IMG/VR virus record: IMGVR_UViG_3300045988_185035
Strand: one strand, 5' to 3'
Source: a virus
DNA length: 64,000 nt
This document shows positions 15,817 to 51,669 of this stretch, one piece after another (position 1 is the stretch's first letter; every line of letters starts with the position of its first letter). Both the position numbers and the translations under genes were made by a program. The notes below the pieces were generated by a model that saw only the letters and a program-made list of their open reading frames with translations, was not told the origin of the DNA and searched no databases.

Positions 15817-15904
15817 TGTTGAGTCCTCCTTGCAAATAAAAAAGCAGGCTCTTAAAAGAACCTGCTTTCGTGGTCGTTAATACACTTTTTGGTCTACAAT
15901 ATTC

Positions 15905-15932
15905 AGTTTACTCAATTCGCACAAACGCGCAA
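15905..15932 (-). promoter_or_regulatory. sigma70-like promoter with conserved GTGCGAATTG spacer (TTGCGC-N16-TAAACT)
   Basis: Member of the repeated promoter-like motif family described in the findings. Confidence 0.45.
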
Positions 15933-15952
15933 GAAGGCAACATGAAACGGTT

Positions 15953-16429
15953 TTATTTCCATTCCATATATGGAATATGTGCCAGCATAAGCAAACACAC
16001 TTCAAGATTTGATTCGATGTAACGAGCAATTGTATCGAATCGTTGATTCAGACTCAATGACTCAAAAGTGTAGCCGGATTCAGAGAGAATCATTTCCTCG
16101 CTGCTGGTATACATAACATTGAGCATCGCCGTCAATGCTTGCAGGATTTCCGTATCGCAGTCCTTCTTTGTGAAGAAGAAATATCGTGTTGAGTTCCCAT
16201 CGGTGATGCCGATTTTGCCTTCATAGCCATCAAAACTTGCAAGGTCGCCGAATAAGCTGCAAGCAATATAGCCAAGCTTTTCTTCAACCGGCACAGTGAC
16301 CCACAAAGGATAACGCTCGTTTGGCTGAAAATCAGTCTTGCCACAGTTATACTCCCACTCGATGAAAGTACGAATACTGATAACTTCTCCGTACGGCGTA
16401 ATAATTTTGACGTTTTCCAATTTACTCAC
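15953..16429 (-). CDS. hypothetical protein (158 aa)
   Basis: Six-frame ORF with RBS GAGGTGAGTAAATTG-ATG; promoter motif at about 16455-16478. Confidence 0.55.
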   Translation of the reverse strand: MSKLENVKIITPYGEVISIRTFIEWEYNCGKTDFQPNERYPLWVTVPVEEKLGYIACSLFGDLASFDGYEGKIGITDGNSTRYFFFTKKDCDTEILQALTAMLNVMYTSSEEMILSESGYTFESLSLNQRFDTIARYIESNLEVCLLMLAHIPYMEWK

Positions 16430-16523
16430 CTCACTTGTGCGTCACATGACTTTATTGTATTCAATTCGCAATGAAAAGCAAAAAGAGGGGCCGCCTGACG
16501 GCAGTCCCTCTTATGCAATGTGA

Positions 16524-17033
16524 TTAGTATTTTCCGGCTTGTACACCGGGAATGGCTTCGATTTTCTTGAGGATGTTCTCGAAGTTGTGCATGACATACG
16601 ACGAGATTTCGCACATCTTCTCCTCGTGGTTCAGGGTGTCGAATTTGGCAAAAGCGCCGTTTTCCTCATAAGCAGCTTTCACCTCTGCGTAAACACGCTT
16701 GAAAACATTCGCGCTTTCGATGGCAACCTTGTCAGCGTAAAACGGGCACCAAACTTCTTTGGTAGTGTTGGCGGTCTTGATGAGGATAGGTTCTCCCCTG
16801 TCATCACCATTGCCCAGCATCTGGAACAGGGACATAGACATGGCCTGCATCTTCTGGGAAGGAGTCAACTCCTCCCATTTGGTGCCGGGTTCAGCAATCT
16901 TGCAACTGTTGAACTTGGCGTATGCACAGCCGGTCTCGGCCTGGTAGTTTTTGTCGCGAGTCTCCGTGTAAAGAAACTCGGCGACATCTTTGGTCGGCAT
17001 GGATTTGCCCATCAGAATAACAGTTTTGCTCAT
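16524..17033 (-). CDS. hypothetical protein (169 aa)
   Basis: Six-frame ORF packed against its neighbours. Confidence 0.55.
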   Translation of the reverse strand: MSKTVILMGKSMPTKDVAEFLYTETRDKNYQAETGCAYAKFNSCKIAEPGTKWEELTPSQKMQAMSMSLFQMLGNGDDRGEPILIKTANTTKEVWCPFYADKVAIESANVFKRVYAEVKAAYEENGAFAKFDTLNHEEKMCEISSYVMHNFENILKKIEAIPGVQAGKY

Positions 17034-17057
17034 GGTGGTATTCTCCTTTTTGAAAAA

Positions 17058-18491
17058 TTACATCGTCGGACTTTGCGGCAGCCACTGCTGCGGATAAGCA
17101 CGAAGCAGATTCTTAGGCACGCAATCGCTCAGCGCAGAGTTCTCAGCAAGTGCCATGTCGATGATGTAGTAATCATCACCGTTGCGCATCACATCAACAC
17201 TCCACTGCCCTGTCAGCTCTACGTGCGGAATAACCTTCTTCAGCTCATCCAGAACAATCTGGACACTCTCCTTGTAGCGCTTTTCCAGCACATCCTCGTG
17301 CATCTGGTAGATAACGTAGTCGTGCCGTTCCTGCGGACTGCTCACTTCCTGGAATTTGCCCTTCATCACATCGCTGCGCCAGTACGGACTGACGCCGAGA
17401 ATCGTCTTAGCATCGAAGTCCACAAACACGCGGTATTCAGTGTGCAGCGGCAGACCGTTATAGATAGTCGGATTCCCTTCCTTGTCTTTGATATACTCTC
17501 TGACAACCCACTCGTTGGTCGTATTTGCCCCGTAGAAGCAATGCCCATTGCCGGGTGCTGCCATAGAGCAGGTCAGATGGTTCAAAAACAAGAAATACTC
17601 GCCCATCTCACGGACCTCTTGAGGTTCATGGACATGGGCATTGCGGAACTCGTACTTGGAAGAGTACGTGCCGGTTTTGATGAAGTAGTCGCCATCATCG
17701 TCCAGATGGAAGATTCTCTTGCAGTAACGATTCACAATCGCTTTCGTCACGGGATTAAGCGTCTCAAAGCCGAGTCTCGTGAGTTGGAGCATCGTGATGG
17801 GCACATGCAAGAGTTTTGTCTCCGGCACCTTGAAGAACTTGTTGCCGTCCAAGGCAGCAACCAGTGGCGGCAGCCAGTAGCTCATCGTGTTCGGATTCAT
17901 TTCAAGCATTTGATATGTGATGTCATCGAGGTCCAGAATGTCGAGGCCCTGGCGGAACACGTGATACTGCATCGCTTTGTTTCGGTCGTTTCTCGCATCG
18001 AGATACGCCTTGTAATGGCTGAGCAGCACCTTATAAGACGGTTCCGAAATGTCAATCTTCATCAGATTGCCGGTCAGCTGCGGCCGAAGTTCTTCCGGGA
18101 ACTTCTTGAGGTCCTCATTCGTAACCGGCGGAAGGATATGCTGGTTTGTGGAATATCGAACATAATAGCCTCCACGCTCCGGCTCATAGATGTACATTCT
18201 GGTGTTGTCCATCAGCTCGGCAACGATTTTGTCAATGAGATTGTCCAGCTCTTTCGTAAAAGGCACGCTCTTATCGAGCATTGCCTTTACGGTTGCGGTA
18301 TCCCACTGGAGAAGGTTTTCGGACAGTGCGCCACTTTCCAGCACTTGGGTCCTGTAGACATCTTCAAAGGTCTTGAGCGCATCAGGGCTCGTTTTCAGCA
18401 TCGATGCAAGCTCCTCATAGGAAAACGACTCATTTTCCTTCTTTGAGAGCATCGCGCCGATTTGAGCAAGCATATCGTTGAGGTGAGCCAT
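17058..18491 (-). CDS. putative ATP-grasp fold enzyme (477 aa)
   Basis: C-terminal half shows ATP-grasp-like motifs: YFIKTGTYSSKYEFRN, EWVVREYI, EYRVFVDFD, DYYIIDMALAENS. Confidence 0.5.
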   Translation of the reverse strand: MAHLNDMLAQIGAMLSKKENESFSYEELASMLKTSPDALKTFEDVYRTQVLESGALSENLLQWDTATVKAMLDKSVPFTKELDNLIDKIVAELMDNTRMYIYEPERGGYYVRYSTNQHILPPVTNEDLKKFPEELRPQLTGNLMKIDISEPSYKVLLSHYKAYLDARNDRNKAMQYHVFRQGLDILDLDDITYQMLEMNPNTMSYWLPPLVAALDGNKFFKVPETKLLHVPITMLQLTRLGFETLNPVTKAIVNRYCKRIFHLDDDGDYFIKTGTYSSKYEFRNAHVHEPQEVREMGEYFLFLNHLTCSMAAPGNGHCFYGANTTNEWVVREYIKDKEGNPTIYNGLPLHTEYRVFVDFDAKTILGVSPYWRSDVMKGKFQEVSSPQERHDYVIYQMHEDVLEKRYKESVQIVLDELKKVIPHVELTGQWSVDVMRNGDDYYIIDMALAENSALSDCVPKNLLRAYPQQWLPQSPTM

Positions 18492-18823
18492 CAGTAGCCC
18501 TCCTCATCGGAAATTTCATCTGCCGTCAGGTTTTCGTTGAAGTCCACGGTCAAATCAGCAACCGGCGCGTCCAGCTTTTTAAGGCCGAACGACTCATAGA
18601 AGCCATCAGGAATCTCGGCCGCATCACCCCAGTTGAAGTAGCCACTGTTGAGTCGCAGCGTCTTTTTGCCTTCTTCGGTATCCAGATAAGACTTTACGGC
18701 GTTGCGTACTTGCGTGAGAACGTCATACGCTTTTTCAGAGTCATACTCAAACTGCAACATGGTCGTCTCGGTGCTGAATGGGCCGATGATTTCGTTTGCT
18801 GCGATAGTAAAAATTTTAGTCAT
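18491..18823 (-). CDS. hypothetical acidic protein (110 aa)
   Basis: AAAGGAGTGTATTTACC-ATG; preceded by a leader hairpin plus U-tract and the promoter motif. Confidence 0.55.
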   Translation of the reverse strand: MTKIFTIAANEIIGPFSTETTMLQFEYDSEKAYDVLTQVRNAVKSYLDTEEGKKTLRLNSGYFNWGDAAEIPDGFYESFGLKKLDAPVADLTVDFNENLTADEISDEEGY

Positions 18824-18850
18824 GGTAAATACACTCCTTTGTTTTGACGC

Positions 18851-18888
18851 AAAAAGAGCGGGCCTCCCGCGTGGGAAGTCCGCTCTTC
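18851..18888 (-). terminator. leader hairpin plus U-tract (terminator-like) between the promoter motif and the start codon
   Basis: Minus strand AAGAGCGGACTTCCCACGCGGGAGGCCCGCTCTTTTTG lies 25 nt upstream of the ATG at 18823. Confidence 0.5.
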
Positions 18889-18949
18889 AAGCGAAATTGT
18901 GAATACGAAGGGCAAGTCGCCTTTTCGATTATGTTATCTATCGTACACT

Positions 18950-19152: not shown

Positions 19153-20310
19153 TTACGGCTTGCAATACCCGCAAGGTGTATAGCCCTGCTCGATTAGGTC
19201 ATCGCGGGAACCTGTATAGTCTTTGCGGTTTGCATCGCTCATTTGAGCTACGGCGGAGCAGTCAGGCTTATGAAATTTCATAGAGTTTGTGTTCAGGACA
19301 TAGGTACTGACCGTCGTATTCTTTTGCTGTGACTCCTCGACCTCGACTGTATCGGTGGTAGTGCTTCCTGCCGCCTGGTGATATTCGCCATAGGTGAAAG
19401 AAACGTCTTTACCATCTGAGGTGCAGTAGATGTCTCCCATCTCGTCAGTTCTGAAAACCTCAATGTCTTTGCTCTGGAGCTTTGCCAAAGTGATGTCGTG
19501 TGGATGACCATAGCTGTTGTCCTTGCCACAGGAAATAACAGCATAGGCTGGATTCACTGTGTCGAGGAACGCTTCGGATGTGGAGGTTCGAGAACCATGA
19601 TGCCCTACCTTCAGAACAGTAGATTGGATGTCTTGTCCAGACTGTAGGATAACATCTTCGGCAGGCTCTTCTGCATCACCCGTAAACAAGAATGAGGTTT
19701 CTCCATATACGATGCGTAGGACAATGGAGGTATTGTTGGTATCATCCGGCACTGAGTTCACGGCGATAACAGTCACTTCGGCATCGCCAAGGGAGAATGT
19801 ATCCCCTACCGACGGAATCGTAAGGCCGTTGCCTCTTTCTTCCGCTCGCTGCTTGAAGTTCCGAAAAGCTTTACTGTCGTACTCTGTGACAGGGCAATAC
19901 GTGACATCAGCCGTCACGGCTTCGAATGCACCGGAAAGACCTCCGATATGGTCTTCATGGGCGTGCGTGCCAACAACATAATCCAGATGTCCGTCTGTCT
20001 CACGTTCCAGAACAGAATATACGAGGTCAGAATCATCAACATTGCCACCGTCAATGAGCATCGAATGCCCATCACAGGTAACAAGAGCAGAGTCCGCCTG
20101 CCCCACATCAATGAAGTGGATAGTAAAGCTGCCGTCTTCCGTTACGCCAGCCGTCTGCTCGCTGTCAGAGACAGGACTTTCTGAGACGACCCCGGATACA
20201 GGAAGACTACCCGAATCAATCGGGGTCTGACCGCAGCCTGCGAAGCTGAGGGTGAAGAGTGCCGCAATCGCTGCCGCTGCTCTCCGCAAGAATGTGTTTT
20301 TGCTTTGCAT
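19153..20310 (-). CDS. MBL-fold metallo-hydrolase lipoprotein (ComEC/Rec2-type beta-lactamase domain) with C-terminal Ada-like Cys-rich zinc-binding motif
   Basis: Lipobox LSFAGC; THAHEDHIGG and later HHGSR motifs; C-terminal KFHKPDC...GYTPCGYCKP. Confidence 0.75.
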   Translation of the reverse strand: MQSKNTFLRRAAAAIAALFTLSFAGCGQTPIDSGSLPVSGVVSESPVSDSEQTAGVTEDGSFTIHFIDVGQADSALVTCDGHSMLIDGGNVDDSDLVYSVLERETDGHLDYVVGTHAHEDHIGGLSGAFEAVTADVTYCPVTEYDSKAFRNFKQRAEERGNGLTIPSVGDTFSLGDAEVTVIAVNSVPDDTNNTSIVLRIVYGETSFLFTGDAEEPAEDVILQSGQDIQSTVLKVGHHGSRTSTSEAFLDTVNPAYAVISCGKDNSYGHPHDITLAKLQSKDIEVFRTDEMGDIYCTSDGKDVSFTYGEYHQAAGSTTTDTVEVEESQQKNTTVSTYVLNTNSMKFHKPDCSAVAQMSDANRKDYTGSRDDLIEQGYTPCGYCKP

Positions 20311-20342
20311 TGGAAATTTCTCTTTTCAAATAAAAAAGAGCG

Positions 20343-20385
20343 GGCCTACCCCGGAATGGGATAAGTCCGCTCTTAAAACAGATTG
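20343..20385 (-). terminator. leader hairpin plus U-tract upstream of the MBL lipoprotein gene
   Basis: Minus strand AAGAGCGGACTTATCCCATTCCGGGGTAGGCCCGCTCTTTTTTATTTG. Confidence 0.5.
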
Positions 20386-20474
20386 TGAACGATAGAAAAT
20401 CGTAACATCTTTATGTGTTTGGTATCTATCGTACAATCAATATTGTAGTCAATTCGAAAGGAATGGCAAGGCCT

Positions 20475-20696: not shown

Positions 20697-20708
20697 CTTT
20701 TGGCACTC

Positions 20709-24099: not shown

Positions 24100-24384
24100 T
24101 TACTTCACGATGCGGTCTTTTACCGCAGCTTCTGCCTCTGCGTACTGCCGAGCATGACTTTTGGCTTCCACCAGCAGAGCATCCTGCTCAACCTGAAGCA
24201 CTGCCTGCATTGAGGTGTGCTGTTTCCGCTTTGCACGTGAAACGGTATGCTGCCTGACCGCCTGGCGGATAGCTGCGTTTGTGTGTTGGATGCTGGCGGT
24301 TTCCTCATGCGAGAAGTCCCTATCTGTACCTCCTTGAAGATTAGACTCGGTTACAGTCTTGGCAAACTCAATAGATGTCGTCAT
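24100..24384 (-). CDS. hypothetical protein (about 94 aa)
   Basis: Internal start MTTSIEF with GGAGGCAGCT-ATG. Confidence 0.5.
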   Translation of the reverse strand: MTTSIEFAKTVTESNLQGGTDRDFSHEETASIQHTNAAIRQAVRQHTVSRAKRKQHTSMQAVLQVEQDALLVEAKSHARQYAEAEAAVKDRIVK

Positions 24385-24991
24385 AGCTGCCTCCGATTCC
24401 GGCCCAAAGAGCTTCATCACTCAAGTCGTTGCGCGGGCACTTAATAATGCCCGCTTCTCTTAAAATTTTTCTTGCTTCATTTGGCGTTAATCCATATTGC
24501 TTGGCAAGATTCGATAGAGACTGATTTGGAATAGCTCTGGCTTGGGCAATCAATCGTCTTTTCCTCTCGGCCCAATCGATTTCGGATTTCTTTGTTTTGG
24601 GTGCAGAGCGAACGGTTCTCTCGAAGTTGATTTCGAGGTCTTTTTGGTACTTCTTCGCGATTGCCTGAATGCCGCTGCTGGTCATGCCCCACTTTTCGGC
24701 GATGGTATTATAGGGCACACCATTTATGTAATCTTCGTAGATTTCCTTGTTTCTGGCACGCTTTGCCTGTGTGTTTCTTTGCCAGTTAAGGCGTGTCTTT
24801 TCCAAGCCGTATTCAGAGTCTGAACGAAGGATTTGTACAATCCTATAGCCAGACACGCCATATTTATCGGCCAAATCCACGACACACACGCCATCTATAT
24901 AATCTCGGTAAATCGCGTCATTACGTTCTTTCAAGGATTTATGGACGTCGTTATGTCTTGGCTTCATCTTAGTATCGCTATTTCCCATCAC
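24368..24991 (-). CDS. DNA-binding protein with three helix-turn-helix repeats
   Basis: Three HTH-like segments (IYRDYIDGVCVVDLADKYGVSGYRIVQIL; IYEDYINGVPYNTIAEKWGMTSSGIQAI; SLSNLAKQYGLTPNEARKILREAG). Confidence 0.55.
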   Translation of the reverse strand: MMGNSDTKMKPRHNDVHKSLKERNDAIYRDYIDGVCVVDLADKYGVSGYRIVQILRSDSEYGLEKTRLNWQRNTQAKRARNKEIYEDYINGVPYNTIAEKWGMTSSGIQAIAKKYQKDLEINFERTVRSAPKTKKSEIDWAERKRRLIAQARAIPNQSLSNLAKQYGLTPNEARKILREAGIIKCPRNDLSDEALWAGIGGSYDDIY

Positions 24992-26343: not shown

Positions 26344-27812
26344 AAAAGACGGTCGGTCAGTGCTTTAGCCTGCTCCGGCGTGATGAAAGGCAGTTCTACC
26401 TGCTTGATATAACGGTCCTGGCTCGTCATCAGCATTGTAAGAAACAGAACTTTTTGCTCAACGGACTTCCAAGTGGTTGGAACCTTCGCCATCTTGTCCT
26501 TGTGTAGGTACATGAAGAAGGCGATGGCGCTGTCGATGTCGTAAAAATCGAAGAAGTTTGCCTGCTGGTAGATGCCAATGCAGGGAGACAGGTCAATCAT
26601 CGCATCGGAGTGCTTGATTTCAATTTCCGTCTGGTCTTTCTGGAATACCTGCTTGGTTGTGATAAGGTTGTAGCACGCATCCACATCCTCATCAAACTTG
26701 AAATCGAACATTTCACTGATGTCGAATTTGTCCTTAAAGGTGGTGCGAGTCTTGACAGGGGTCATCAGTGTCTTGTCGCTCACGAGGCTACGCTTATCGG
26801 GTTTGACGAAGATGACCTCCTGCTTGCCACGGCTCGCAGCTACGCAAAAGAGGTTGCGCATGATTTCGTAGCGAGTCAGAGGCTGGCGCATACGGGTGGC
26901 CCAGTAATCCTCAGTGAAATCGAAAACTACACAGATAGGGCGCTCCATACCCTTGCTGCCATCGAACGTCGTGAAGATGCCCACGTTACCGTTCGGAGCT
27001 ACGCTCTTTTCACCATCGTTGTCCTTGATGCTGGCATAGACGTGCTTCTTATCATAGAGGTTGTCGGGACGTTCTTCCAAGGCATTCAAAACTGCGGCCA
27101 TCTGGCCGGTACGAGCGCCAAGGCATAGGACGTTCTTCGGGTCCAAATCGTTGAGGTACTCGATGACCTCATCCTTCGTCATGGACTTGACTTTGCAGTT
27201 CTCGTTGACTCCGTTGATTTCCTTATTCCAGATAGTGCCAAGGCGCTCGGCCAAGTCGTGGGACAAGCGGAAGCATTGGGTAAAGTTGACCTGCGTGTGT
27301 TTGCCGAGGAACTTGTTGATGAAGTTCCAGATGTCCAAGGATGTGGTGTCGTAGATTTTCTGCGCCATATCCCCCACCGCAATAATTTGCATGGTGGGGT
27401 TTTCTTCCTTGATATATTCAAGCATTCGAGAGATTTCTTCGTTAATATCTTGGTACTCATCGATGATGAGCACGTCATAGCGACCGACCGGAACATGCAA
27501 ATCGAGCGCCTTCTTAATTTGCTCGCCCTGTCCAATATTACGAACTCCGTGCCGATAGAGGAGTTTTGAAGCAAAGCCGTGGTAGTTCTGGACGACAACA
27601 TTGTCGTTTAGGATTTTTTCTTGCGCGTCGAGTTTTAGCAGACGGTTATAGGTCAGGTACAGAATCTGTTTGGAGGCGTCAAACTCGTTACACAACACGT
27701 TGATGGTCGATGTTTTACCGCTGCCGATGCAAGCGTCACAGAGTATATTTCTGCCTGCGAGAGCCAGGCGTACAAGGTCCTGTTGCTCAGTAGACAGGTT
27801 AGCGAGAGTCAT
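26301..27812 (-). CDS. SF1 DNA helicase, UvrD/PcrA-like, with C-terminal extension
   Basis: Walker A GSGKTS, motif II IIDEYQD, motif III VGDMAQKIY, motif V GIFTTFDGSKGMERP, motif VI RNLFCVAASRGKQE; GGAGGATTCAAACC-ATG. Confidence 0.85.
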   Translation of the reverse strand: MTLANLSTEQQDLVRLALAGRNILCDACIGSGKTSTINVLCNEFDASKQILYLTYNRLLKLDAQEKILNDNVVVQNYHGFASKLLYRHGVRNIGQGEQIKKALDLHVPVGRYDVLIIDEYQDINEEISRMLEYIKEENPTMQIIAVGDMAQKIYDTTSLDIWNFINKFLGKHTQVNFTQCFRLSHDLAERLGTIWNKEINGVNENCKVKSMTKDEVIEYLNDLDPKNVLCLGARTGQMAAVLNALEERPDNLYDKKHVYASIKDNDGEKSVAPNGNVGIFTTFDGSKGMERPICVVFDFTEDYWATRMRQPLTRYEIMRNLFCVAASRGKQEVIFVKPDKRSLVSDKTLMTPVKTRTTFKDKFDISEMFDFKFDEDVDACYNLITTKQVFQKDQTEIEIKHSDAMIDLSPCIGIYQQANFFDFYDIDSAIAFFMYLHKDKMAKVPTTWKSVEQKVLFLTMLMTSQDRYIKQVELPFITPEQAKALTDRLLCSRMTKRFRNVLS

Positions 27813-27846
27813 GGTTTGAATCCTCCAGAATACGTATTAACGCAAA

Positions 27847-27885
27847 AAGAATACCCCGGCAGGCACGCATGGTGTTCCGCCGGGG
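27847..27885 (-). terminator. leader hairpin plus U-tract upstream of the helicase gene
   Basis: Minus strand ACCCCGGCGG...GCCGGGGTATTCTTTTTGCG between the promoter motif and the ribosome-binding site. Confidence 0.45.
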
Positions 27886-27904
27886 TACAATTATTTATCT
27901 TACA

Positions 27905-27945
27905 ATATCAATTGTAGGCAATTCGCACAGATGGTCAAGCACTTT
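27905..27945 (-). promoter_or_regulatory. sigma70-like promoter TTGACC-N16-TACAAT with GTGCGAATTGCC spacer
   Basis: Minus strand GCTTGACCATCTGTGCGAATTGCCTACAAT. Confidence 0.5.
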
Positions 27946-28010
27946 TTATCGTATTTTGTTTTGAGTTTTGCGGGTACAAAAATAACGCCCACCCGTGATT
28001 TACGGATGGA

Positions 28011-28113
28011 CGTTCAATCTTACGCAGCCACATGTGCTGCTACGATGCTTTCGGACGACATGTAGCCGATACCGTCCTCGTTTCAATCTTACGCAGTCAC
28101 ACGGGCTGCTACG
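28011..28113. repeat. two about 34-bp direct repeats, each with an internal dyad GCAGCCACATGTGCTGC
   Basis: cgttcaatcttacgcagccacatgtgctgctacg and cgtttcaatcttacgcagtcacacgggctgctacgg; intergenic. Confidence 0.6.
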
Positions 28114-28218
28114 GCAAAATTACATAACAAAGAATTTTGCATATATTCAGCATTGTATATTCTGCCACTATTGGTTCTACGTTATTTTTGTTTGCTATCA
28201 CCGCATCTCTTTGCGGTT

Positions 28219-32934: not shown

Positions 32935-33065
32935 AGTGGTATTCTCCTTTATATTTGTTATTAGTTCCCTGTGGTACTTATTATTGTATGCGACTCGCAT
33001 AAGGCGTCAACCGTCGCGCCTACGGCTTTTGCAGCTATGCTCTCTTATCCGTTTAGCAGCTACGC

Positions 33066-33106
33066 AACAAAAAAGGAGCCTCACCCGCTGCTGCAGGCAA
33101 GGCTCT
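33066..33106 (-). terminator. rho-independent terminator
   Basis: GGAGCCTCACCCGCTGCTGCAGGCAAGGCTC hairpin with a T-tract on the minus strand. Confidence 0.5.
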
Positions 33107-33440: not shown

Positions 33441-33635
33441 ATTGGTGTTCTCCTTTGTGTGTTATTGAGATTCTTCTTGCACCTTTAATTGTACGCAAAT
33501 CGCACGATACAGCAATATAAAATTCCTTTAATAGAATCCGAAATATTTGAATTCAATTCGTGATTTCTTTGATTTTGTGATTTTCGCACGCGTAGGTGCC
33601 AAAAAGTTTATGTATAGCCTGGTTTATACTGACCT

Positions 33636-34532
33636 TTATGAATTTTGTTCATACACATTTATCAGCACTTGCTTGTTGGATGCAATAAGTGTCACCTTTT
33701 CACTGTAATTGATGCCTGGCGTCAAGAACATCCTTTTATTAAGAATTTCAGTGGTATATGTATAATCAAAGAGTCGATTTGTCAAATCTGCATTTTTATT
33801 TGAAGTGAAAATGACGCCTATATGCGTAGCCAGTGGAACCCAAATCTCTAAATTTTCGTTTTTGGACCGGAAACAAGCTACCGGAAAATTTGAAGTGATG
33901 AAGACTTTGCTTGTATAGCAAAAACGAAATTTAAAATTGCTTAATATGTTGCTAAAGTTTTCGGCTTGAAATCCCTCAAGTTTCCTTAATTCGTCCGTTG
34001 GTACGATTGTTCGATTTAGTGCTTGCTTTAGAAATGCGTTCATCATCAGACCCCACTCGTCTTTACCGAGAACAGGACCCTTCAGATTGTTAAACATGCG
34101 CTCATAGGTTGTTTTGTTCCTAAAATAAAGTTGAGCAATAAATTGAAACAGTATGCTCTTTTCTTCTTTATTTAGAATTAGGACTGTATTAAAATTTTCA
34201 TGGTGGCTTGCTATTTCTATAATTTTGTCAATCAATTTCTTTTGCTGAGATTCAAATTTTGAAAAGAGGTGCTCTTTCTCATTATGTAGAATATATTGGC
34301 CGCCATATTGGCTTTCATACAAATTATTAGCAGAGCACAAACTTGAGACTCCATTTTCTTTCGGGCGAGGGTTGATTCCTGTAGCCTCAAGAGAATAAAC
34401 CACGCCGGGTTTCCCCGGAATTGAAAAATAAGACAAGTAAAATTGTGGGACATAGTGTTCATTGACCGTTGCATTTTGCACATTTGATGACATCGTTATT
34501 GCTCCTTTCATAAAAAGAAAAAAGCCTCCCAC
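33636..34532 (-). CDS. DUF4238-like protein (HxVPxxYL motif)
   Basis: N-terminal NEHYVPQFYLSYF motif characteristic of DUF4238; lies in an AT-rich segment. Confidence 0.55.
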   Translation of the reverse strand: MGGFFLFMKGAITMSSNVQNATVNEHYVPQFYLSYFSIPGKPGVVYSLEATGINPRPKENGVSSLCSANNLYESQYGGQYILHNEKEHLFSKFESQQKKLIDKIIEIASHHENFNTVLILNKEEKSILFQFIAQLYFRNKTTYERMFNNLKGPVLGKDEWGLMMNAFLKQALNRTIVPTDELRKLEGFQAENFSNILSNFKFRFCYTSKVFITSNFPVACFRSKNENLEIWVPLATHIGVIFTSNKNADLTNRLFDYTYTTEILNKRMFLTPGINYSEKVTLIASNKQVLINVYEQNS

Positions 34533-34632
34533 CGTAGTCAGTGTGATACTGATTACGATAGGAGGCTGTGAACCTGTTGTGATGATTGTATTATAGCACG
34601 AATTGAGAATTGCGCAAGACTATATAAGGCGC

Positions 34633-37966: not shown

Positions 37967-38410
37967 TTATCTTAATTTGGTCCTGATTTCTTCGAGCATC
38001 ATGCCCAGTTTGTTCTGACCGTGAACGCCCTTGCATCTGGGACACTGGCAATCCCCCCAATAGTTATCGTGCCAGCCGGTCGTGTCTTCGATAATGTGCC
38101 GGTCGCCTGTAGCGAGCAGTCGCTGTTTGAACTCTTCGTTCTGGTTGAACTTGGCATACAGCACCCGGCGCATCGCCTCGTCTCGAACTTCGTCCCAATC
38201 TGGAGGAAGTTGGACCCGGCGGCCGAGTCGCTTAGCCTCGTTCGGCATGAGACAGGCAAACTGGCGTCTCTCCTCCGGCGGGACCTTCTGGGCTTGGAAT
38301 GCTGCTTCCGCGTTGAGGTAGTAGATTCCATCCAGCACAAAGGAGCAAGGATAATAATTGCTCAGAAACCCGTAGGTCGGGTCGTCTTTCTTAAACCGCA
38401 GCAGATTCAA
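37967..38410 (-). CDS. NADAR-domain protein (YbiA-like; ADP-ribose/N-glycoside hydrolase family)
   Basis: LSNYYPCSFVLDGIYYLNAEAAFQAQK...AKRLGR...KFNQNEEFKQRLLATGDRHIIE...DNYWGDC matches the NADAR/YbiA signature; likely TTG start after GGAGG. Confidence 0.8.
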   Translation of the reverse strand: MNLLRFKKDDPTYGFLSNYYPCSFVLDGIYYLNAEAAFQAQKVPPEERRQFACLMPNEAKRLGRRVQLPPDWDEVRDEAMRRVLYAKFNQNEEFKQRLLATGDRHIIEDTTGWHDNYWGDCQCPRCKGVHGQNKLGMMLEEIRTKLR

Positions 38411-39053
38411 TGTGCATTCCCTCCATAACCCCGGCGGGCGTATTTTTGAGAACCTTGTAGCGCATCGTCGTAGCACCAAGCAGACCGTTGAAGACGGTCA
38501 CGGCGGTATGCACGAACAGAGGGTTCTGCAAGGTCATCTTGCCGTTTGTATCCCACTGGCCTTTGAGTTCAGCGGCCGCATCGTACACAACCATCATCAT
38601 GGCTTCATACATGTCGGACATCAGCTGTCGGTCGTACTTCTTCAAAGCATAGTAGCTTGGCAGGTTGTAAACGCGGCCGAGGAGCGGCTCGTCATACAAG
38701 GGCGAACCTTTCGCAACCATCGTATTGTAGACTTTGGGCCAGGCAGCTTCTTTCGGCTTGCCGGTGGTTGCCTGCATCTCGATGTTCTTGAAACCAGCCG
38801 TCATGTTGTACAGCACCATGAGCCGCTCGGCAAGCAAGACAGAAGATTCAGCCAGGTGCTTTGCTTCCTCATTGGTCATCGCAACCTGCATGGCCGTGCT
38901 GTCCGAGTCGTTGCCATAATAGAAATACTGCTTGCGCCCGGCGGCAGATTTCTGTACGAGCTTCTTTGCCAGCTGGCTCTCGATGTAATTGTAGATGTCG
39001 TTCTCCAACTCGCAGGTGATGCGCGTTGCGGTATAATGGATATTTTTGTTCAT
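38391..39053 (-). CDS. hypothetical protein, paralog of 31188-31787
   Basis: Six-frame ORF; preceded by the promoter motif and a leader hairpin. Confidence 0.6.
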   Translation of the reverse strand: MNKNIHYTATRITCELENDIYNYIESQLAKKLVQKSAAGRKQYFYYGNDSDSTAMQVAMTNEEAKHLAESSVLLAERLMVLYNMTAGFKNIEMQATTGKPKEAAWPKVYNTMVAKGSPLYDEPLLGRVYNLPSYYALKKYDRQLMSDMYEAMMMVVYDAAAELKGQWDTNGKMTLQNPLFVHTAVTVFNGLLGATTMRYKVLKNTPAGVMEGMHIESAAV

Positions 39054-39134
39054 GTAGTAGCCTCTTTCTGCATAGTAAAAAGAAAGAGCGGGCGAGCCGC
39101 TCTCCTCAAGACACTTATTTATCTTACGATTTTT

Positions 39135-39175
39135 ATTCTATGCAATTCGCACAGACACGCAAGGCGAAATAGCGA
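39135..39175 (-). promoter_or_regulatory. sigma70-like promoter TTGCGT-N16-TAGAAT with GTGCGAATTGCA spacer
   Basis: Minus strand CCTTGCGTGTCTGTGCGAATTGCATAGAAT. Confidence 0.5.
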
Positions 39176-39179
39176 CAGC

Positions 39180-39791: not shown

Positions 39792-39981
39792 GTGCGCTTC
39801 TCCTTTACTTTAGTCTACCTACAATGATACTCAATTCGAACGGATGAACAAGGAACCTTACGACATGTACATGGTTTCTTTAGAAATTGTTATCACGCTT
39901 TTAATAAACAGCGTCAAATCTCGCATTTTTGTATTCCATGTGTTATAAATGCAAGTAGAAAAGAAGGATGAGGCGTTTTTT

Positions 39982-44524: not shown

Positions 44525-44560
44525 CTGATTTTTATTATCTGCAATTCGCACAATTCATCA
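44525..44560 (-). promoter_or_regulatory. sigma70-like promoter TTGATG-N17-GATAAT with GTGCGAATTGCA spacer
   Basis: Minus strand TTTGATGAATTGTGCGAATTGCAGATAATAAAAATC; directly follows a terminator. Confidence 0.5.
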
Positions 44561-44574
44561 AATTTTCGCAGATA

Positions 44575-44611
44575 CGAAAAAAGCAGCCACCTCCCGAAGG
44601 AAGCGGCTGCG
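44575..44611 (-). terminator. rho-independent terminator
   Basis: GCAGCCGCTTCCTTCGGGAGGTGGCTGC followed by TTTTTTCG on the minus strand. Confidence 0.6.
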
Positions 44612-45678: not shown

Positions 45679-46179
45679 TCACAGTGCAGCCAGATAGTGA
45701 ATCGCCATCTTTGCAAACCCGATAGCAGATACAAAGCACCATCCTGCTTTTCCAGCCCAGATAACCTTTGTATAGATGGGTAATACCTTTCGGACCGGCT
45801 CCAATTTCCCGAATGCAAGAGGAATTGCGGATACCATCAGCAGCGAAATGTCAAACGCTAAACAAACAAACACAGTTAAACAGTAGTTCAGCATGAGTTG
45901 AGCTTCGACCTTATTGACTTCAATTAAGCGCAAAGCCAACAAAGCAAATGCCGTTGAAATCACACAGCTAATGACAAGGATTCGTACCGTATGGTTCAGA
46001 GTATCCTCGGGTGATAGGTATTTTCTTTTGCCGCAGCAATAGGTTACTTCTTGGAAGGCTTTACGCCCAAAATACAAGTTATAAACACCATTTACTGCGA
46101 AAAGGATAGCTGTTATGGAGAACAGCGCCACTCTGCAAATATCAACGATACCCATAGGAATCAAAAGGAGAACTTGCAC
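45679..46179 (-). CDS. polytopic membrane protein
   Basis: Multiple hydrophobic helices. Confidence 0.5.
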   Translation of the reverse strand: MQVLLLIPMGIVDICRVALFSITAILFAVNGVYNLYFGRKAFQEVTYCCGKRKYLSPEDTLNHTVRILVISCVISTAFALLALRLIEVNKVEAQLMLNYCLTVFVCLAFDISLLMVSAIPLAFGKLEPVRKVLPIYTKVIWAGKAGWCFVSAIGFAKMAIHYLAAL

Positions 46180-47048
46180 TCACGGCGCTCGCGGCCATTG
46201 CCGCACCAATAGTGCCGCCAGGTGGGAGCCTTACCGTTCGCTTCCTTCTTGTAACGCTCCATCAGATAATGGCCCACCACAAAGGTCTTGATATTGACTT
46301 TCTTGGTCTGGCCCTTGAACGTAAAGACAGGACGTTCGTCCTTTTTCGGGCTGTCCAGACGAATCTCCGCGCCTTTGCTGGCAAGGTAGTAGGCACACAG
46401 CATTGCGAGACGGACATAGGGCGTGCCTTCGCCGTAAACAGACGGGATAGCGTCCAGCGTTTCAGGAATAGTGATGTCATCTTTATCGCGGGTCGAAGAT
46501 GCCTTTTCGATGTACTGTTTCGTGCTGCGAGTCGCCTCCGTCAAGCTCTGACCCCCCTTAATCCAAGCGGGAAGGGACAGGAACGCGAAGTTCTCCTTCT
46601 CGTTCTGGACGGGGCCGACAAGGACGATGCCAACGAAGGTGTCATCCGTCTTTGTATCGAACTCGATATGCACGAACATGCCGCAGTAGTCCACGCTGTT
46701 GTACAGAGGCACATAGAAGTTCTTGAACGGCAGGCGCTCCAGCACCTCGCGATGGAGGGTGAGGTCATCGGTATCCATCAGCAGTTCCAGAAAATCCTTG
46801 CCGAAATCGTAGATGACCTTGGTCTGATTCCAGTTGGCGATGGTGTAGCACGGGAAAATCTGGGCAGCCAGCACCTTTTCAAAGCCAGGCTGCTGCATCT
46901 GCTGGGCAACACGCAGGCACTGAAGCGTAGCGCCCTTGGTGAATTCGTCCAGCGTCTTGCCGCAGGGGTCCTCAAAATCGAAGCCGGTACGGGTCGAGCG
47001 AGTAACGGCATTGGCGGTGAGTGCGATACGAACCTGTTCAGAAGTCAT
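46161..47048 (-). CDS. hypothetical protein (295 aa)
   Basis: Six-frame ORF; structured intergenic region containing the CGTGGAGGC motif lies upstream. Confidence 0.6.
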   Translation of the reverse strand: MTSEQVRIALTANAVTRSTRTGFDFEDPCGKTLDEFTKGATLQCLRVAQQMQQPGFEKVLAAQIFPCYTIANWNQTKVIYDFGKDFLELLMDTDDLTLHREVLERLPFKNFYVPLYNSVDYCGMFVHIEFDTKTDDTFVGIVLVGPVQNEKENFAFLSLPAWIKGGQSLTEATRSTKQYIEKASSTRDKDDITIPETLDAIPSVYGEGTPYVRLAMLCAYYLASKGAEIRLDSPKKDERPVFTFKGQTKKVNIKTFVVGHYLMERYKKEANGKAPTWRHYWCGNGRERRECKFSF

Positions 47049-47179: not shown

Positions 47180-47191
47180 GGAGAACCCCGC

Positions 47192-48869: not shown

Positions 48870-48955
48870 AGTTATCTCCCGTGTGCTGCATACCAAGCAT
48901 AGAAGCCATCGTATTGCTCCCGCCCTGGTCTGTCTTCGCTCAAACTCGCGGGTAT

Positions 48956-49210: not shown

Positions 49211-49215
49211 GTTAC

Positions 49216-49608
49216 TCACCATCCTCCACGAGATAAGCGAACCCACTCTGTCCTTGTCCCGCTGTAATACGGAGTATGAGTATACGCTTCGTAGGCCCAT
49301 TTGCGCTCTTGCTCTTCCCTCAATGCTTGCTCCTCCTTCAGTTCCTTGACTGTGGCGATGAGCTTGTTTTCTTTGCCTTCCGCTTCACCTTTGGCAAAAG
49401 CGGCTTTTTGGGCTTCGTCAATACGCTGGTATCTGTTCTTTCGTTCTTTCTCGATATAGAGTAGTCCATTGGCTACTGCATCGAGAAATGCTTGTGTCTC
49501 AAAGGCAGAAATAGGTTCTTTTCCATCCTTATCTTTGGATACACAGAAAAAGCCGTTTTCGTCATAGCAGATGAAATAGGGAGAGTTTGGGACCTGTTGT
49601 GTTTTCAT
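49216..49608 (-). CDS. hypothetical protein (130 aa)
   Basis: Six-frame ORF; structured intergenic region with CGTGGAGGCTGTCTT lies upstream. Confidence 0.55.
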   Translation of the reverse strand: MKTQQVPNSPYFICYDENGFFCVSKDKDGKEPISAFETQAFLDAVANGLLYIEKERKNRYQRIDEAQKAAFAKGEAEGKENKLIATVKELKEEQALREEQERKWAYEAYTHTPYYSGTRTEWVRLSRGGW

Positions 49609-49661
49609 GGCTTTCTCCCCTTCTTTTTCGTTCTGAAGACTATTTGCCAGGAGCCTTTCCC

Positions 49662-49705
49662 GTTGCCCGCCGCTTGCCCCGTGGAGGCTGTCTTCGTTGA
49701 GCGGC
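49662..49705. promoter_or_regulatory. hairpin-embedded CGTGGAGGCTGTCTT element (copy h)
   Basis: GTTGCCC-GCCGCT-tgccccgtggaggctgtcttcgttg-AGCGGC. Confidence 0.45.
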
Positions 49706-49739
49706 AGCAGCCCTCAATGGGCTGCGTGATGAACCTCAA

Positions 49740-51431
49740 TTATTTGTTGGGGCCCGTCTTCTTTTTATACGGATTGGTTTTGTTGGTGGTAGCATGCTTC
49801 TCAGCTGCCTTGGCGTGAGCATCCATGATGGCCTTTTCCTCGTCCGTAAAATCGGGACGGAAAGAAGTTTTATCTTCGCCGGTGATAGGGTCCTTCTCAT
49901 GGAACATCCAACCATCTTCGACACGCTCGGAGGTGATGTGAGATTTTGGCTCATCCAACTCCACACCATCGATATGGATGTTGCGGTCCGTCTTAGCCTG
50001 GATGCTATTGGCACGAACAATCTCACCCATGTCGATACCGGTTGCCTCCTTCACCGTCTGCATGGTCTGGGCCATGAGCACCGGGACGTTACCAGACACA
50101 CCGGATACGCCGGAAGCATCACCACCGATGATAGACACCTTGTCGATGCTGGACAGGGGCTGGGCCACGCTCTTGGCGATGTCAGGCAGAACCTTGATAA
50201 GCATTTCGGCAACAGCTGCGTCGTTGTACTGTTTGTAGGCTTCGGCTTTCTGCTTCATAGCCTCTGCCTCAGCCAGACCTTTCTGGCGAATGGCTTCAGC
50301 CTCAGCCTTACCGACCATCTCGATGCCTTCTGCTTCCTGCTGCTTAGCGAACTTTTGTGCTTCGGCTGCACGCTCCGCCTCGTATTTTTTGGCTTCTGCT
50401 TCTTTCTGACGGCGATAAAGGTCTGCATCAGCCTGTTTACGGACTTCTGCGTCCAGTTTACGCTGCTGGACTTCGGCTTCCTGCGCAGCAAGGTCAACCA
50501 TCTTCTTCTGCTTGGCAATCTCTGCGTCAGCCTCAGCTTCTTTGATTTCCTTGGCACGGAGGTTCATCTGGATACGACCAGCAGCATCTGCGTCGGCCGC
50601 AGCTTTGTCAGCTTCTGCCTTCAGCTTTGCCTTGGCAAGCTGCAACTCGTTGTTGCGCTGTGCGATAGCGGTCTGGGCTTCAACTTCCTTGGCGTTCGCT
50701 GCCATCTCAGCATCTGCTTTGGCACATGCCACATCGCGAGCAGCCTGGGCACGAGCAATCTCAGCCTGCTTCTTCACCAGTTCTTCCTGCTCGATACCGA
50801 TAGCTTCGATGACACCGTGATTGTGGCCCTGTGCATCAATCGCGTCCCTAATGTCTTGAACATTGAAGGTCACGACCTCAAGGCCCATCTTGGCGAGGTC
50901 TGGACGAGCGTTCTCAATGACGCTCAGTGCCATCTGCTTGCGGTTTGTCAGAATCTGGTCAACGGTCATGTCGGAGACAATCTCACGCAGGTTGCCCTGC
51001 AGAACGTCATTGACCTTGTCGTTGATGCCCTGCTCGTTCATGCCCAAGAAGTTCGAGATAGCTGCCTGCTGGCGGGACATGATATACGCCTTGGCGTCCT
51101 TCAGACCAGATGCTTTGACCTCATCGTCCAACACAGTGGAGTTCTCACTGTAAACCTGAATCGTTACGACAGAATCAATCCAGAGCGACACGCCATTCTG
51201 AGTCTTGACGCCTGTTTCAGGGGTCTTGACATCGATTTTCAGCAGCCGCATGTTCAGCTTGTCTGCTCGTTGCAAGACAGGAAGCACAAACGTGCCTTTA
51301 CCGGATACTACTTTAGGCTTTGACAACCCAAAACCGGTCACGACGATAGCCTCCGTCGGAGGGGCCTTCTTGTAGCACAGAAAGCCGAAGATGATAATAA
51401 GGACTGCTACAATCCCGATGATAAGCGCCAT
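49740..51431 (-). CDS. flotillin-like SPFH/Band-7 domain membrane protein
   Basis: N-terminal TM helix; SPFH segment FVLPVLQRADKLNMRLLKIDVKTPE...VSLWIDSVVTIQV; long Ala/Glu/Lys coiled-coil region. Confidence 0.8.
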   Translation of the reverse strand: MALIIGIVAVLIIIFGFLCYKKAPPTEAIVVTGFGLSKPKVVSGKGTFVLPVLQRADKLNMRLLKIDVKTPETGVKTQNGVSLWIDSVVTIQVYSENSTVLDDEVKASGLKDAKAYIMSRQQAAISNFLGMNEQGINDKVNDVLQGNLREIVSDMTVDQILTNRKQMALSVIENARPDLAKMGLEVVTFNVQDIRDAIDAQGHNHGVIEAIGIEQEELVKKQAEIARAQAARDVACAKADAEMAANAKEVEAQTAIAQRNNELQLAKAKLKAEADKAAADADAAGRIQMNLRAKEIKEAEADAEIAKQKKMVDLAAQEAEVQQRKLDAEVRKQADADLYRRQKEAEAKKYEAERAAEAQKFAKQQEAEGIEMVGKAEAEAIRQKGLAEAEAMKQKAEAYKQYNDAAVAEMLIKVLPDIAKSVAQPLSSIDKVSIIGGDASGVSGVSGNVPVLMAQTMQTVKEATGIDMGEIVRANSIQAKTDRNIHIDGVELDEPKSHITSERVEDGWMFHEKDPITGEDKTSFRPDFTDEEKAIMDAHAKAAEKHATTNKTNPYKKKTGPNK

Positions 51432-51669
51432 ATACATACTCCTTTCGCTCATCACAACCAATGCCTGTCTTTTGTGCAGGCGCGAATACAAACAAAAAAG
51501 CTGCGGAAGCAAAAGCAACCACAGCCTTTTATATGAACCACCGGCCCAGGAAAAAGCCGATGGGGTGAATACAAGCGGAAAGCAAACATGTCAAAGTGAG
51601 AGGAAACCACGTCGTACACACCGGCAGGAAGAGGTTAAGACCCGCCGGAACCCAATTCCGCTTGTACAA

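What the first reader, a model, noticed from the sequence alone, without database searches (positions are those of the whole stretch)
15838..51525. Promoter-proximal hairpin plus U-tract (terminator-like) elements between the promoter motif and the start codon of several genes
At 15838-15870, 18851-18888, 20343-20385, 27847-27885, 39075-39100 and 51490-51525 the order on the minus strand is promoter motif, then 40-230 nt, then a GC-rich hairpin followed by 5-7 T, then the ribosome-binding site, then ATG. The hairpin loops at 18851 and 20343 are near-identical (AAGAGCGGACTT...CCCGCTCTTTTT). Other loci show the expected order of terminator, promoter, then gene, for example 44575-44560 and 52737-52705. 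So the leader hairpins are a distinct feature. They could be regulated attenuators read through by a phage antiterminator, in the way Q and N act in lambda. They could instead be 5' stabilising stem-loops, or leaky terminators that grade expression along the long minus-strand transcription unit.
Basis: partly seen in the sequence, partly recalled or inferred. Interest (0 to 1): 0.6.

Follow-up and report, generated by a model that had tools for sequence, protein, structure and literature searches.

The report
Promoter–leader–terminator cassettes in a gut phage
Several genes of this large human-gut phage are preceded by a conserved unit of phage-type promoter, short leader and full-strength transcription stop signal, so their expression probably needs the stop signal to be overridden, but no overriding factor was found and nothing has been measured.

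Summary
All six sites are strong GC-rich hairpins with U-tracts. They lie between a σ70-like promoter that has a conserved spacer (TTGnnn-N5-TGCGAATTG-nn-TAnAAT) and the ribosome-binding site. I found a seventh unit at 34512-34617. The leader hairpins are as stable as the window's end-of-operon terminators. They are conserved in dozens of related gut-phage contigs, with compensatory base changes and retained U-tracts.

Two sites (18848-18948 and 20330-20436) belong to a ~100-nt leader family. It is absent from Rfam, precedes at least 8 different genes, and has about 16 model matches (some possibly duplicated) in loci of one related genome.

Promoters followed by a leader terminator carry TA exactly 8 nt after the -10 element. 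This holds for 14 of 16 classes with a terminator and 0-1 of 12 without. In the window it is 6 of 6 against 0 of 7. Within classes the pattern is often T-A-n-n-n-T, like a σ-dependent pause element.

The best reading is conditional attenuation relieved by antitermination, possibly loaded near the promoter as λ Q is. No Q or N homologue was found and there are no expression data. Leaky terminators and small-RNA units remain live rivals. I rate it a new variant of a known kind.

The parts
15905..15932 (-). U1 class promoter TTGCGC-gtttg-TGCGAATTG-ag-TAAACT
15891..15896 (-). U1 hexamer TAGACC, 8 nt after the -10 (TA-type initial transcribed region)
15834..15869 (-). U1 leader terminator: 13-bp hairpin plus T6; AAGGAGG and a TTG start at 15816 follow
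   Evidence: conserved in L189-L191
18953..18980 (-). U2 class promoter
18848..18948 (-). U2 type-I leader (5' domain, linker ATTCACAATTTCGC, terminator 18853-18888 plus T5); gene start at 18823
   Evidence: covariance-model hit of 97.7 bits; fold
20442..20469 (-). U3 class promoter (TTCGAATTG variant)
20330..20436 (-). U3 type-I leader (terminator 20336-20374 plus T6); gene start at 20310 (metallo-beta-lactamase-fold protein)
   Evidence: covariance-model hit of 80.7 bits; folds
27911..27938 (-). U4 class promoter TTGACC-16-TACAAT
27897..27902 (-). U4 hexamer TAAGAT (T-A-n-n-n-T kept in four clades: TAAGAT, TAAACT, TAGACT)
27843..27888 (-). U4 leader terminator (hairpin 27851-27888, tail UUCUUUUU); helicase gene start at 27812
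   Evidence: compensatory changes across clades
39135..39162 (-). U5 class promoter
39121..39126 (-). U5 hexamer TAAGAT (TAAGCT in L291)
39076..39105 (-). U5 leader terminator (weakest, -12.7 kcal/mol); gene start at 39053
51675..51702 (-). U6 class promoter
51488..51667 (-). U6 structured leader of 180 nt (12-bp helix that starts at the first transcribed bases, second hairpin, terminator 51498-51526 plus T6); Band_7/flotillin gene start at 51431
   Evidence: -74 kcal/mol, z -6.9
34590..34617 (-). U7 canonical extended -10 promoter TTGCGC-16-TATAAT (not the TGCGAATTG class; the spacer carries the motif inverted)
34512..34567 (-). U7 leader terminator (-30.1 kcal/mol plus T-run); SD GAAAGGAG and ATG at 34493 (DUF4238 gene)
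44534..44561 (-). Comparator: class promoter with non-TA start region and no leader terminator. Others of this kind: 16454-16481, 33488-33515, 32983-33010, 39824-39851, 52680-52707, 11418-11445.
44583..44610 (-). Comparator: ordinary terminator placed before a promoter. Others: 52713-52738, 33076-33105, 27984-28014, 51730-51761.
24368..24988 (-). Tandem Mor-type helix-turn-helix protein. It is the only recognisable phage transcription regulator in the window. It is a candidate binder of the conserved promoter spacer; that link is inference only.

Best explanation
Each site is a promoter-proximal intrinsic terminator inside a modular cassette: class promoter, then leader, then terminator.

Proposed default state: RNA polymerase that starts at the cassette promoter, or arrives from upstream, stops at the U-tract. 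This releases a short leader RNA of about 55-180 nt, and the gene 10-60 nt further on stays off or low.

Proposed on state: the gene is switched on when termination is suppressed by a phage-made factor. The common denominator of the units is not the leader RNA, which falls into several unrelated types. It is the promoter plus a fixed TA(nnnT) element at about +2 to +7. I therefore favour loading of the factor at or near the promoter, on a σ-dependent promoter-proximal pause, in the manner of λ Q. Recognition of the leader RNA is the second option.

Shown: the anatomy, the hairpin strength, conservation with covariation, and the association with the TA-type start region.

Inferred: the transcription start site, actual termination, pausing, and the existence of an antiterminator.
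For: - The hairpins are as stable as bona fide operon-end terminators and all carry U-tracts.
- They are conserved with compensatory changes. In the type-I terminator 10 of 17 pairs show double changes. The helicase leader hairpin is kept in four clades with C:G to U:A and G:C to A:U swaps and a retained T-run. U7 is conserved.
- In most classes no second class promoter lies between terminator and gene, and only about 8-25 nt separate the U-tract from the SD.
- In U4, U6 and relatives such as L278 6930-6740, a separate terminator already precedes the promoter. The leader terminator is therefore not simply the upstream gene's terminator.
- TA at positions 9-10 after the -10 occurs in 14 of 16 similarity classes with a leader terminator and in 0-1 of 12 without (Fisher p about 6e-6 to 5e-5). 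In the window the split is 6/6 against 0/7 (p 6e-4).
- Within classes C0, C1, C5, C14, C17 and C23, positions 1, 2 and 6 (T, A, T) stay fixed while positions 3-5 vary. This is the conservation signature of a -10-like hexamer.
- The spacing to the -10 is fixed at 8 nt (7 in U2), whereas the distance to the hairpin varies from 6 to more than 130 nt.
- The promoter, σ-dependent pause element (SDPE), terminator, genes order is the defining layout of the Q cassette (PMC9388147).
- Transcript ends immediately downstream of transcript starts, with antitermination hypothesised, were measured in giant phage 201φ2-1 (PMC11512511).
Against: - There are no expression or 3'-end data.
- No Q (PF03589, PF06530, PF06323) or N family appears in the precomputed Pfam tables, or among the 25 of 27 PHROG families listed for 57 window proteins. 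Only 64 kb of a genome of about 186 kb was in view.
- The conserved spacer TGCGAATTG is also present in promoters that have no terminator, so it cannot be a dedicated Q-binding element.
- The sixth hexamer position is T in only 7 of 14 TA classes (C in 4).
- U7 has a leader terminator behind a canonical promoter with neither the spacer motif nor the TA element.
- The 39851 promoter has TAGACT two bases early and no terminator.
- The classes are paralogous cassettes, so the TA-terminator association may partly reflect common descent.
Confidence: 0.45

Rival explanations
1. Constitutive, partly leaky terminators or insulators. Each hairpin damps both upstream read-through and the local promoter by a fixed fraction. 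This sets low, graded levels for accessory genes, and no dedicated factor is needed.
For: - Terminators without any promoter also sit between genes, for example 15201-15178.
- U7 has a leader terminator behind an ordinary promoter.
- In 5 of 7 window units the leader terminator is the first terminator after the upstream gene.
- No antiterminator was found.
Against: - Hairpins of -18 to -30 kcal/mol with U5-6 are not weak.
- It does not explain why the promoter sits before rather than after the terminator.
- It does not explain why a specific TA-type start region goes with the terminators.
- It does not explain why type-I leaders keep about 65 nt of conserved sequence upstream of the hairpin.
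Confidence: 0.2
2. Autonomous small-RNA genes. The promoter-leader-terminator unit exists mainly to make an abundant short RNA that acts in trans or as a decoy. Expression of the downstream gene by read-through is secondary.
For: - In some relatives a second promoter follows the terminator before the gene. Examples are the Band_7 upstream region in L295-L311, with P(TA), about 130 nt, terminator, P(non-TA), gene, and classes C12 and C27. The unit can therefore stand alone.
- The type-I RNA has the classic layout of a structured 5' domain, a conserved single-stranded stretch (AAUUCACAAUUUCGCUU) and a terminator.
- 5'UTR-derived sRNAs made by premature termination were mapped in phage 201φ2-1 (PMC11512511).
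Against: - In most classes (C0, C1, C5, C6, C9-C11, C14, C20, C23) the gene has no other class promoter and its SD follows the U-tract directly.
- The leader types share no common seed.
- No target complementarity was found; ATTCACAAT and its complement are not enriched.
Confidence: 0.15
3. PeSL-like mobile regulatory cassettes. The conserved promoter plus stem-loop units persist mainly as homology patches that shuffle accessory genes by recombination. Their exact order has little regulatory meaning.
For: - The same type-I leader precedes at least 8 different gene starts among close relatives. There are up to 3 copies per 21-kb locus, about 16 model matches (some possibly duplicated between overlapping loci) in loci of one related genome, and at least 4 copies in this genome.
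- The region is rich in small unknown and anti-defence-like genes.
- PeSLs are described as σ70-like promoter plus terminator stem-loop cassettes that mediate shuffling (PMC2839356, PMC4122927).
Against: - This is not exclusive of a regulatory role.
- In the PeSL figures that were read, the stem-loop lies upstream of or overlapping the promoter. Here it is always downstream of the start site with a conserved U-tract.
- Covariation in the stems shows selection on RNA or single-strand structure.
Confidence: 0.1
4. 5' stabilising stem-loops. The named hairpins protect the mRNA 5' end from nucleases.
For: In type-I leaders and U6 the first transcribed bases (GUAC...) pair into a helix that closes a 5' domain. 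That helix could stabilise the RNA.
Against: - That helix is a different one from the named hairpins.
- The named hairpins begin 15-140 nt downstream of the inferred start, and each is followed by a conserved U-tract.
- The 5' helix shows no covariation.
Confidence: 0.03

Closest known systems
Lambdoid Q-dependent regulatory cassette (PR' promoter, Q-binding element (QBE), σ-dependent pause element (SDPE), terminator tR', late genes)
   Same: - The order is promoter, -10-like element in the first transcribed bases, intrinsic terminator, genes.
- A conserved sequence lies between -35 and -10, where, from my own knowledge (not checked in a paper here), the λ QBE lies.
- The default product would be a short terminated RNA, as with λ 6S RNA.
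   Different: - There are many cassettes per genome (at least 7 in 64 kb) in front of single accessory or replication genes, not one late operon.
- No Q-family protein was detected.
- The spacer motif is also present in promoters without a terminator.
- The hexamer is TAnnnT in only half of the classes.
- The host is a Clostridia-like Firmicute, not an enterobacterium.
PeSL (promoter-early stem-loop) cassettes of T4-like phages (PMC2839356, PMC4122927)
   Same: - Repeated composite units of σ70-like promoter plus terminator stem-loop, then SD and start.
- They lie in front of small accessory genes in plastic genome regions.
- The same cassette precedes different genes in relatives.
   Different: - In the PeSL figures that were read, the stem-loop lies upstream of or overlapping the promoter. 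Here it is downstream of the start, after a 15-140 nt conserved leader, so it would also stop the cassette's own transcripts.
- The phage lineage and host are different.
Premature termination in 5' UTRs of giant phage 201φ2-1 (ONT-cappable-seq, PMC11512511)
   Same: In a giant phage, transcript ends were measured immediately downstream of transcript starts, giving 5'UTR-derived short RNAs. The authors suggested antitermination for timing.
   Different: The phage is unrelated (Pseudomonas host, phage-encoded RNA polymerases). No conserved leader family or pause-like element was reported. Here there are no transcript data.
Protein- or RNA-mediated leader antitermination in Firmicutes and their mobile elements (BglG/LicT RAT hairpins, LoaP leaders, Tn916 canT: PMC11658703)
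   Same: - A structured leader lies between the promoter and an intrinsic terminator.
- In type-I leaders a small hairpin (UUCGCUU-AAA-GGGCGGA) can sequester the 5' arm of the terminator in the nascent RNA.
   Different: - That alternative hairpin has no covariation support.
- No CAT/PRD, ANTAR or NusG-paralogue gene was seen.
- canT acts processively over long distances, not on an adjacent terminator.

Membership tests
Intrinsic (Rho-independent) terminator | GC-rich hairpin immediately followed by a U-tract on the transcribed strand | tested here: met
   -12.7 to -30.1 kcal/mol, each with 5-6 T; same range as the window's operon-end terminators
Intrinsic (Rho-independent) terminator | Structure, not sequence, maintained in evolution (compensatory changes, U-tract retained) | tested here: met
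   (10 of 17 pairs with double changes in 41 sequences)
Intrinsic (Rho-independent) terminator | RNA 3' ends at the U-tract in vivo or in vitro | not testable with these tools
   no transcript data available
Q-dependent antitermination cassette (λ/21/82 type) | Promoter followed by a promoter-proximal -10-like σ-dependent pause element | tested here: inconclusive
   TA is fixed 8 nt after the -10 in 14 of 16 terminator classes. T-A-n-n-n-T is conserved within 6 classes, but position 6 is C, G or A in the other 7 TA classes. Pausing itself is untested.
Q-dependent antitermination cassette (λ/21/82 type) | Intrinsic terminator between the pause element and the regulated genes | tested here: met
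Q-dependent antitermination cassette (λ/21/82 type) | Q protein of family PF03589, PF06530 or PF06323 encoded by the element | tested here: not met
   None in the precomputed Pfam tables, which cover most of the window and flanks. No antiterminator among the 25 of 27 PHROG families listed for 57 window proteins. The rest of the ~186-kb genome was not examined.
Q-dependent antitermination cassette (λ/21/82 type) | Q-binding element specific to the regulated promoter | tested here: not met
   The conserved spacer TGCGAATTG is shared by 7 window promoters that have no terminator.
N/nut-type antitermination | Common boxA/boxB-like RNA site in every regulated leader | tested here: not met
   The leaders fall into several types that share only about 6 nt at the 5' end. 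There is no N-like hit.
PeSL cassettes | Repeated σ70-like promoter plus stem-loop unit ending in SD and start of small accessory genes | tested here: met
PeSL cassettes | Stem-loop upstream of or overlapping the promoter, so that it stops only upstream transcription | tested here: not met
   In all 7 units the stem-loop is downstream of the -10, by 22-148 nt in the six named units (coordinates; U7).
PeSL cassettes | Member of T4-like phage genomes | tested here: not met
   No DNA or helicase-protein match to any deposited phage. Relatives are uncultured human-gut contigs.
Any Rfam family (cis-regulatory leader or sRNA) | Score at or above the family gathering threshold | tested here: not met
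   only tRNAs and HDV-like ribozymes pass. The best leader hit is L20_leader at 23 bits against a threshold of 58.7.
5' stabiliser stem-loop | Hairpin within a few nucleotides of the transcript's 5' end | tested here: not met
   The named hairpins start about 15-140 nt after the inferred start. A different 5' helix exists in the type-I and U6 leaders.

The most novel reading that the evidence does not exclude
A clade of large Clostridia-associated gut phages runs a multi-copy antitermination regulon. In it, a dozen or more single-gene cassettes per genome each combine a phage-specific σA-type promoter, a σ-dependent pause-like TAnnnT element at +2 to +7 and a strong terminator. All would be opened together by one as yet unrecognised factor, functionally Q-like but unrelated in sequence. 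The ~100-nt type-I leader would be a new cis-regulatory RNA class.
Probability: 0.25. Interest if true: 0.8.

Novelty: new variant of a known kind. Interest (0 to 1): 0.58.

Why it matters
If the cassettes are conditional, they define a timing switch for accessory, replication and anti-defence-like genes in an abundant but uncultured group of large human-gut phages. They would also point to an antitermination factor of a new family working in Firmicutes, where Q-type control is, to my knowledge (not checked in a paper here), not known.

The promoter consensus and the type-I leader model give practical handles. They can be used to annotate transcription units and to mine gut metatranscriptomes for these phages.

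If the cassettes are only leaky terminators, the finding is an orderly but ordinary piece of phage gene organisation.

Tried and rejected
- Megablast and tblastn against deposited phages found no match.
- A scan of viral contigs with the 14-base promoter pattern gave mostly single, apparently chance hits. Protein-anchored loci were used instead.
- Rfam found nothing for the leaders, either at gathering thresholds or at permissive E-values over three regions.
- Search for an antiterminator:
  - PHROG and Pfam scans of 20 proteins.
  - A PHROG scan of 57 further proteins.
  - Precomputed Pfam annotation of four loci.
  - PDB sequence searches of four candidate early proteins.
  - Only a Mor-type activator turned up.
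- Leader-peptide attenuation was rejected. The AUG inside type-I hairpin 1 is ATG, GTG, CTG, TTG or CCG in different copies.
- An alternative anti-terminator mini-hairpin and the 5' closing helix are 91% pairable but have no covariation support. They are kept only as ideas.
- Motif enrichment: GTAAGAT and ATTCACAAT are not enriched in the window.
- Reading the hexamer as the -10 of a second, tandem promoter was rejected because no -35 or extended -10 lies at a usable spacing (sequence).
- Reading the leader terminator as merely the upstream gene's terminator was rejected for U4, U6 and L278, where a separate terminator precedes the promoter.

Full report
**What the window is.** Nearly all genes lie on the minus strand. 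The window has no close relative among deposited phages. It is identical or closely similar to many uncultured human-gut viral contigs of 35-390 kb and lies on a 186-kb assembly contig. It carries 22 tRNA genes and three HDV-like ribozymes of the F. prausnitzii type. Downstream of the window start there is a phage lysozyme. Recognisable genes include:
- a UvrD-like helicase
- a metallo-beta-lactamase (MBL)-fold protein
- a Y-family polymerase
- a flotillin-like protein
- HNH nucleases
- several anti-defence-like domains

. A large phage of a Clostridia-like host is the reasonable reading. A related 224-kb contig is binned as 'Clostridiales bacterium HRGM_Genome_2451'.

**The observation.** On the minus strand, each of the six sites shows the order promoter, hairpin plus T-run, Shine-Dalgarno sequence, start codon.

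The shared promoter is σ70-like with a conserved 16-nt spacer: TTGnnn-N5-TGCGAATTG-nn-TAnAAT. The exact 9-mer occurs nine times, always on the minus strand. The full pattern matches nine times, also always on the minus strand. With looser variants there are 13 such promoters, including one in front of a tRNA array.

The six hairpins fold at -12.7 to -25.1 kcal/mol, with z-scores of -2.5 to -7.0 against shuffles. The ordinary terminators of the window fold at -14.5 to -24.3 kcal/mol. The leader hairpins are therefore full-strength intrinsic terminators by sequence. The site at 39076-39105 is the weakest.

I found a seventh unit at 34617-34512. Here a canonical TGcTATAAT promoter is followed by a -30.1 kcal/mol hairpin and T-run just before the DUF4238 gene.

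**Conservation.** The helicase leader (U4) is kept in four clades whose helicases are about 77-100% identical. The hairpin changes by compensatory substitutions (CCCCGGC/GCCGGGG against CCCUGAU/GUCAGGG) and the T-run stays.

The leaders at 18848-18948 and 20330-20436 are two copies of one ~100-nt family, which I call type I. Its parts, in order, are:
- a start region GUACGAUAGAUA
- a variable 5' domain
- a nearly invariant linker AUUCACAAUUUCGCUU
- a terminator with a conserved GGACUU in its 5' arm
- a U-tract

In 41 distinct copies, 10 of 17 predicted pairs show changes on both sides. A covariance model finds two copies in the window. It gives about 16 matches in loci of the HRGM contigs, some of which may be duplicates between overlapping loci. 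A pattern scan finds two more type-I-like units just beyond the window start in the same genome. The same leader precedes at least eight different gene starts. Rfam has no matching family.

U1, U5, U6 and U7 are conserved in the relatives available.

**A link between promoter subclass and terminator.** I collected 310 distinct promoter-plus-downstream units from the window and relatives and grouped them into 30 similarity classes.
- Sixteen classes have a hairpin plus T-run before the first gene. Fourteen of these have TA at positions 9-10 after the -10.
- Of the twelve classes without a leader terminator, none has TA as the majority state; one is mixed.
- Fisher p is about 6e-6 to 5e-5.
- In the window the split is 6 of 6 against 0 of 7 (p 6e-4).

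The base before the TA is always a purine, which is the likely start site (inference). The hexamer would then occupy about +2 to +7.

Within classes C0, C1, C5, C14, C17 and C23, positions 1, 2 and 6 stay T, A, T while positions 3-5 vary. Examples are TAAGAT/TAAACT/TAGACT and TAAGGT/TAAAGT/TAAGCT. This is how a -10-like element evolves. The spacing to the real -10 is fixed, whereas the distance to the hairpin ranges from 6 to more than 130 nt, so the element is anchored to the promoter and not to the terminator.

In four classes position 6 is C, and in three it is G or A. The classes are paralogous, so the association is strong but not made of independent events.

**What this resembles.** The Q-dependent cassette is defined as promoter, σ-dependent pause element, terminator, downstream genes, with a Q-binding element at the promoter (PMC9388147). 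The anatomy here matches that layout.

Three membership features fail or are open:
- No Q-family protein was detected. Only about a third of the genome was in view.
- The conserved spacer also occurs in promoters without a terminator.
- Pausing is untested.

PeSL cassettes of T4-like phages are also repeated promoter plus terminator units in front of accessory genes, but their stem-loop lies upstream of or over the promoter. In giant phage 201φ2-1, transcript ends immediately after transcript starts have been measured and attributed to antitermination control and 5'UTR-derived small RNAs. The general phenomenon is therefore known, while its mechanism is open.

**Mechanism.** I favour conditional attenuation (confidence 0.45). 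The terminator stops transcription by default, and a phage factor relieves it. That factor is most simply loaded at the promoter-proximal element, because this is the only feature common to the different leader types.

Points against a plain 'upstream gene terminator' reading:
- U4, U6 and units in relatives already have a separate terminator before the promoter.
- In most classes no other class promoter lies between terminator and gene.

Points that keep the rivals alive:
- U7 has a leader terminator without the special promoter.
- Promoter-less internal terminators exist (15201-15178).
- In some relatives a second promoter follows the leader terminator, so the unit can be an autonomous small transcription unit.
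- Recombination between cassettes in the PeSL manner is compatible with any of these readings.

**Leader RNA details (hypotheses only).** In type-I leaders and in U6 the first transcribed bases pair into a helix that closes a 5' domain. U6 has a 12-bp helix, with -74 kcal/mol for 180 nt and z -6.9. In nascent type-I RNA the linker can form a 7-bp hairpin with the 5' arm of the terminator, as RAT-type antiterminators do. Both helices are 91% pairable, but they are invariant or vary on one side only, so covariation neither supports nor refutes them.

**Verdict.** Its first interpretation is the best supported but unproven. The case is a new variant of promoter-proximal termination control. The type-I leader is an undescribed RNA/DNA element family that is worth experimental follow-up.

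Noticed in passing
window 976-11372 (-): There are 22 tRNA genes in arrays, with three hits to the HDV-like ribozyme family RF02682 (7415-7488, 7684-7755, 9894-9976) interspersed among them. One lies directly 5' of tRNA-Ser 7322-7410. This resembles the ribozyme-tRNA association reported for gut phages.
   Followed up: no
window 51730-51965 (-) and 51432-52875: A canonical promoter (TTGATT-17-TGGTATAAT) is followed by about 200 nt with no called gene and a strong terminator (51761-51730). This sRNA-like unit sits directly upstream of cassette U6. Gene callers leave the whole 1.4 kb empty. There is no Rfam match.
   Followed up: partly
window 27984-28218 (-): A gene-free stretch holds two direct repeats of a hairpin plus GCGUAAGAUUGAA, then a terminator (28014-27984). 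Both repeats carry GUAAGAU, the heptamer that begins the U4 and U5 leaders. There is no Rfam match.
   Followed up: partly
window 18896-18912, 20382-20398; 34604-34612: The type-I linker ACAATTCACAATTTCGC is an imperfect inverted copy of the promoter spacer motif (TGTGCGAATTG). The U7 promoter spacer carries the motif inverted (CAATTCG). One DNA-binding protein might see both promoter and leader DNA.
   Followed up: no
window 24368-24988 (-): This gene encodes a protein with two or three tandem Mor-type helix-turn-helix units (Pfam Mor 42 bits; PHROG 'late transcriptional activator'). It lies in the operon behind the U4 leader.
   Followed up: partly
L276-L289 (DYBQ01000001.1, DYBQ01000017.1): A GTDB species representative labelled 'Clostridiales bacterium HRGM_Genome_2451' has a 224-kb contig with at least 11 type-I cassettes on one strand. 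It looks like a phage genome binned with, or as, a bacterial MAG, and it gives a hint to the host.
   Followed up: partly
relatives, classes C8 and C18: TnpB/IS605-OrfB-like reading frames (MKTYKYKLYNN......YRAYPTEGQ...; identified by eye, not by a search) sit directly behind terminator-less class promoters in related contigs.
   Followed up: no
window 19153-20310, 46161-47048, 37967-38410 (-): Several genes are anti-defence-like: an MBL-fold protein with a faint Apyc1 hit (behind leader U3), an AcrVA2-like protein, and a NADAR-domain protein.
   Followed up: no
window 52876-53289, about 54902-55526 (+): A few plus-strand genes interrupt the minus-strand run. They include an HTH_31 protein and a Penicillinase_R-type repressor, divergent from minus-strand genes. 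This may be a regulatory switch region.
   Followed up: no
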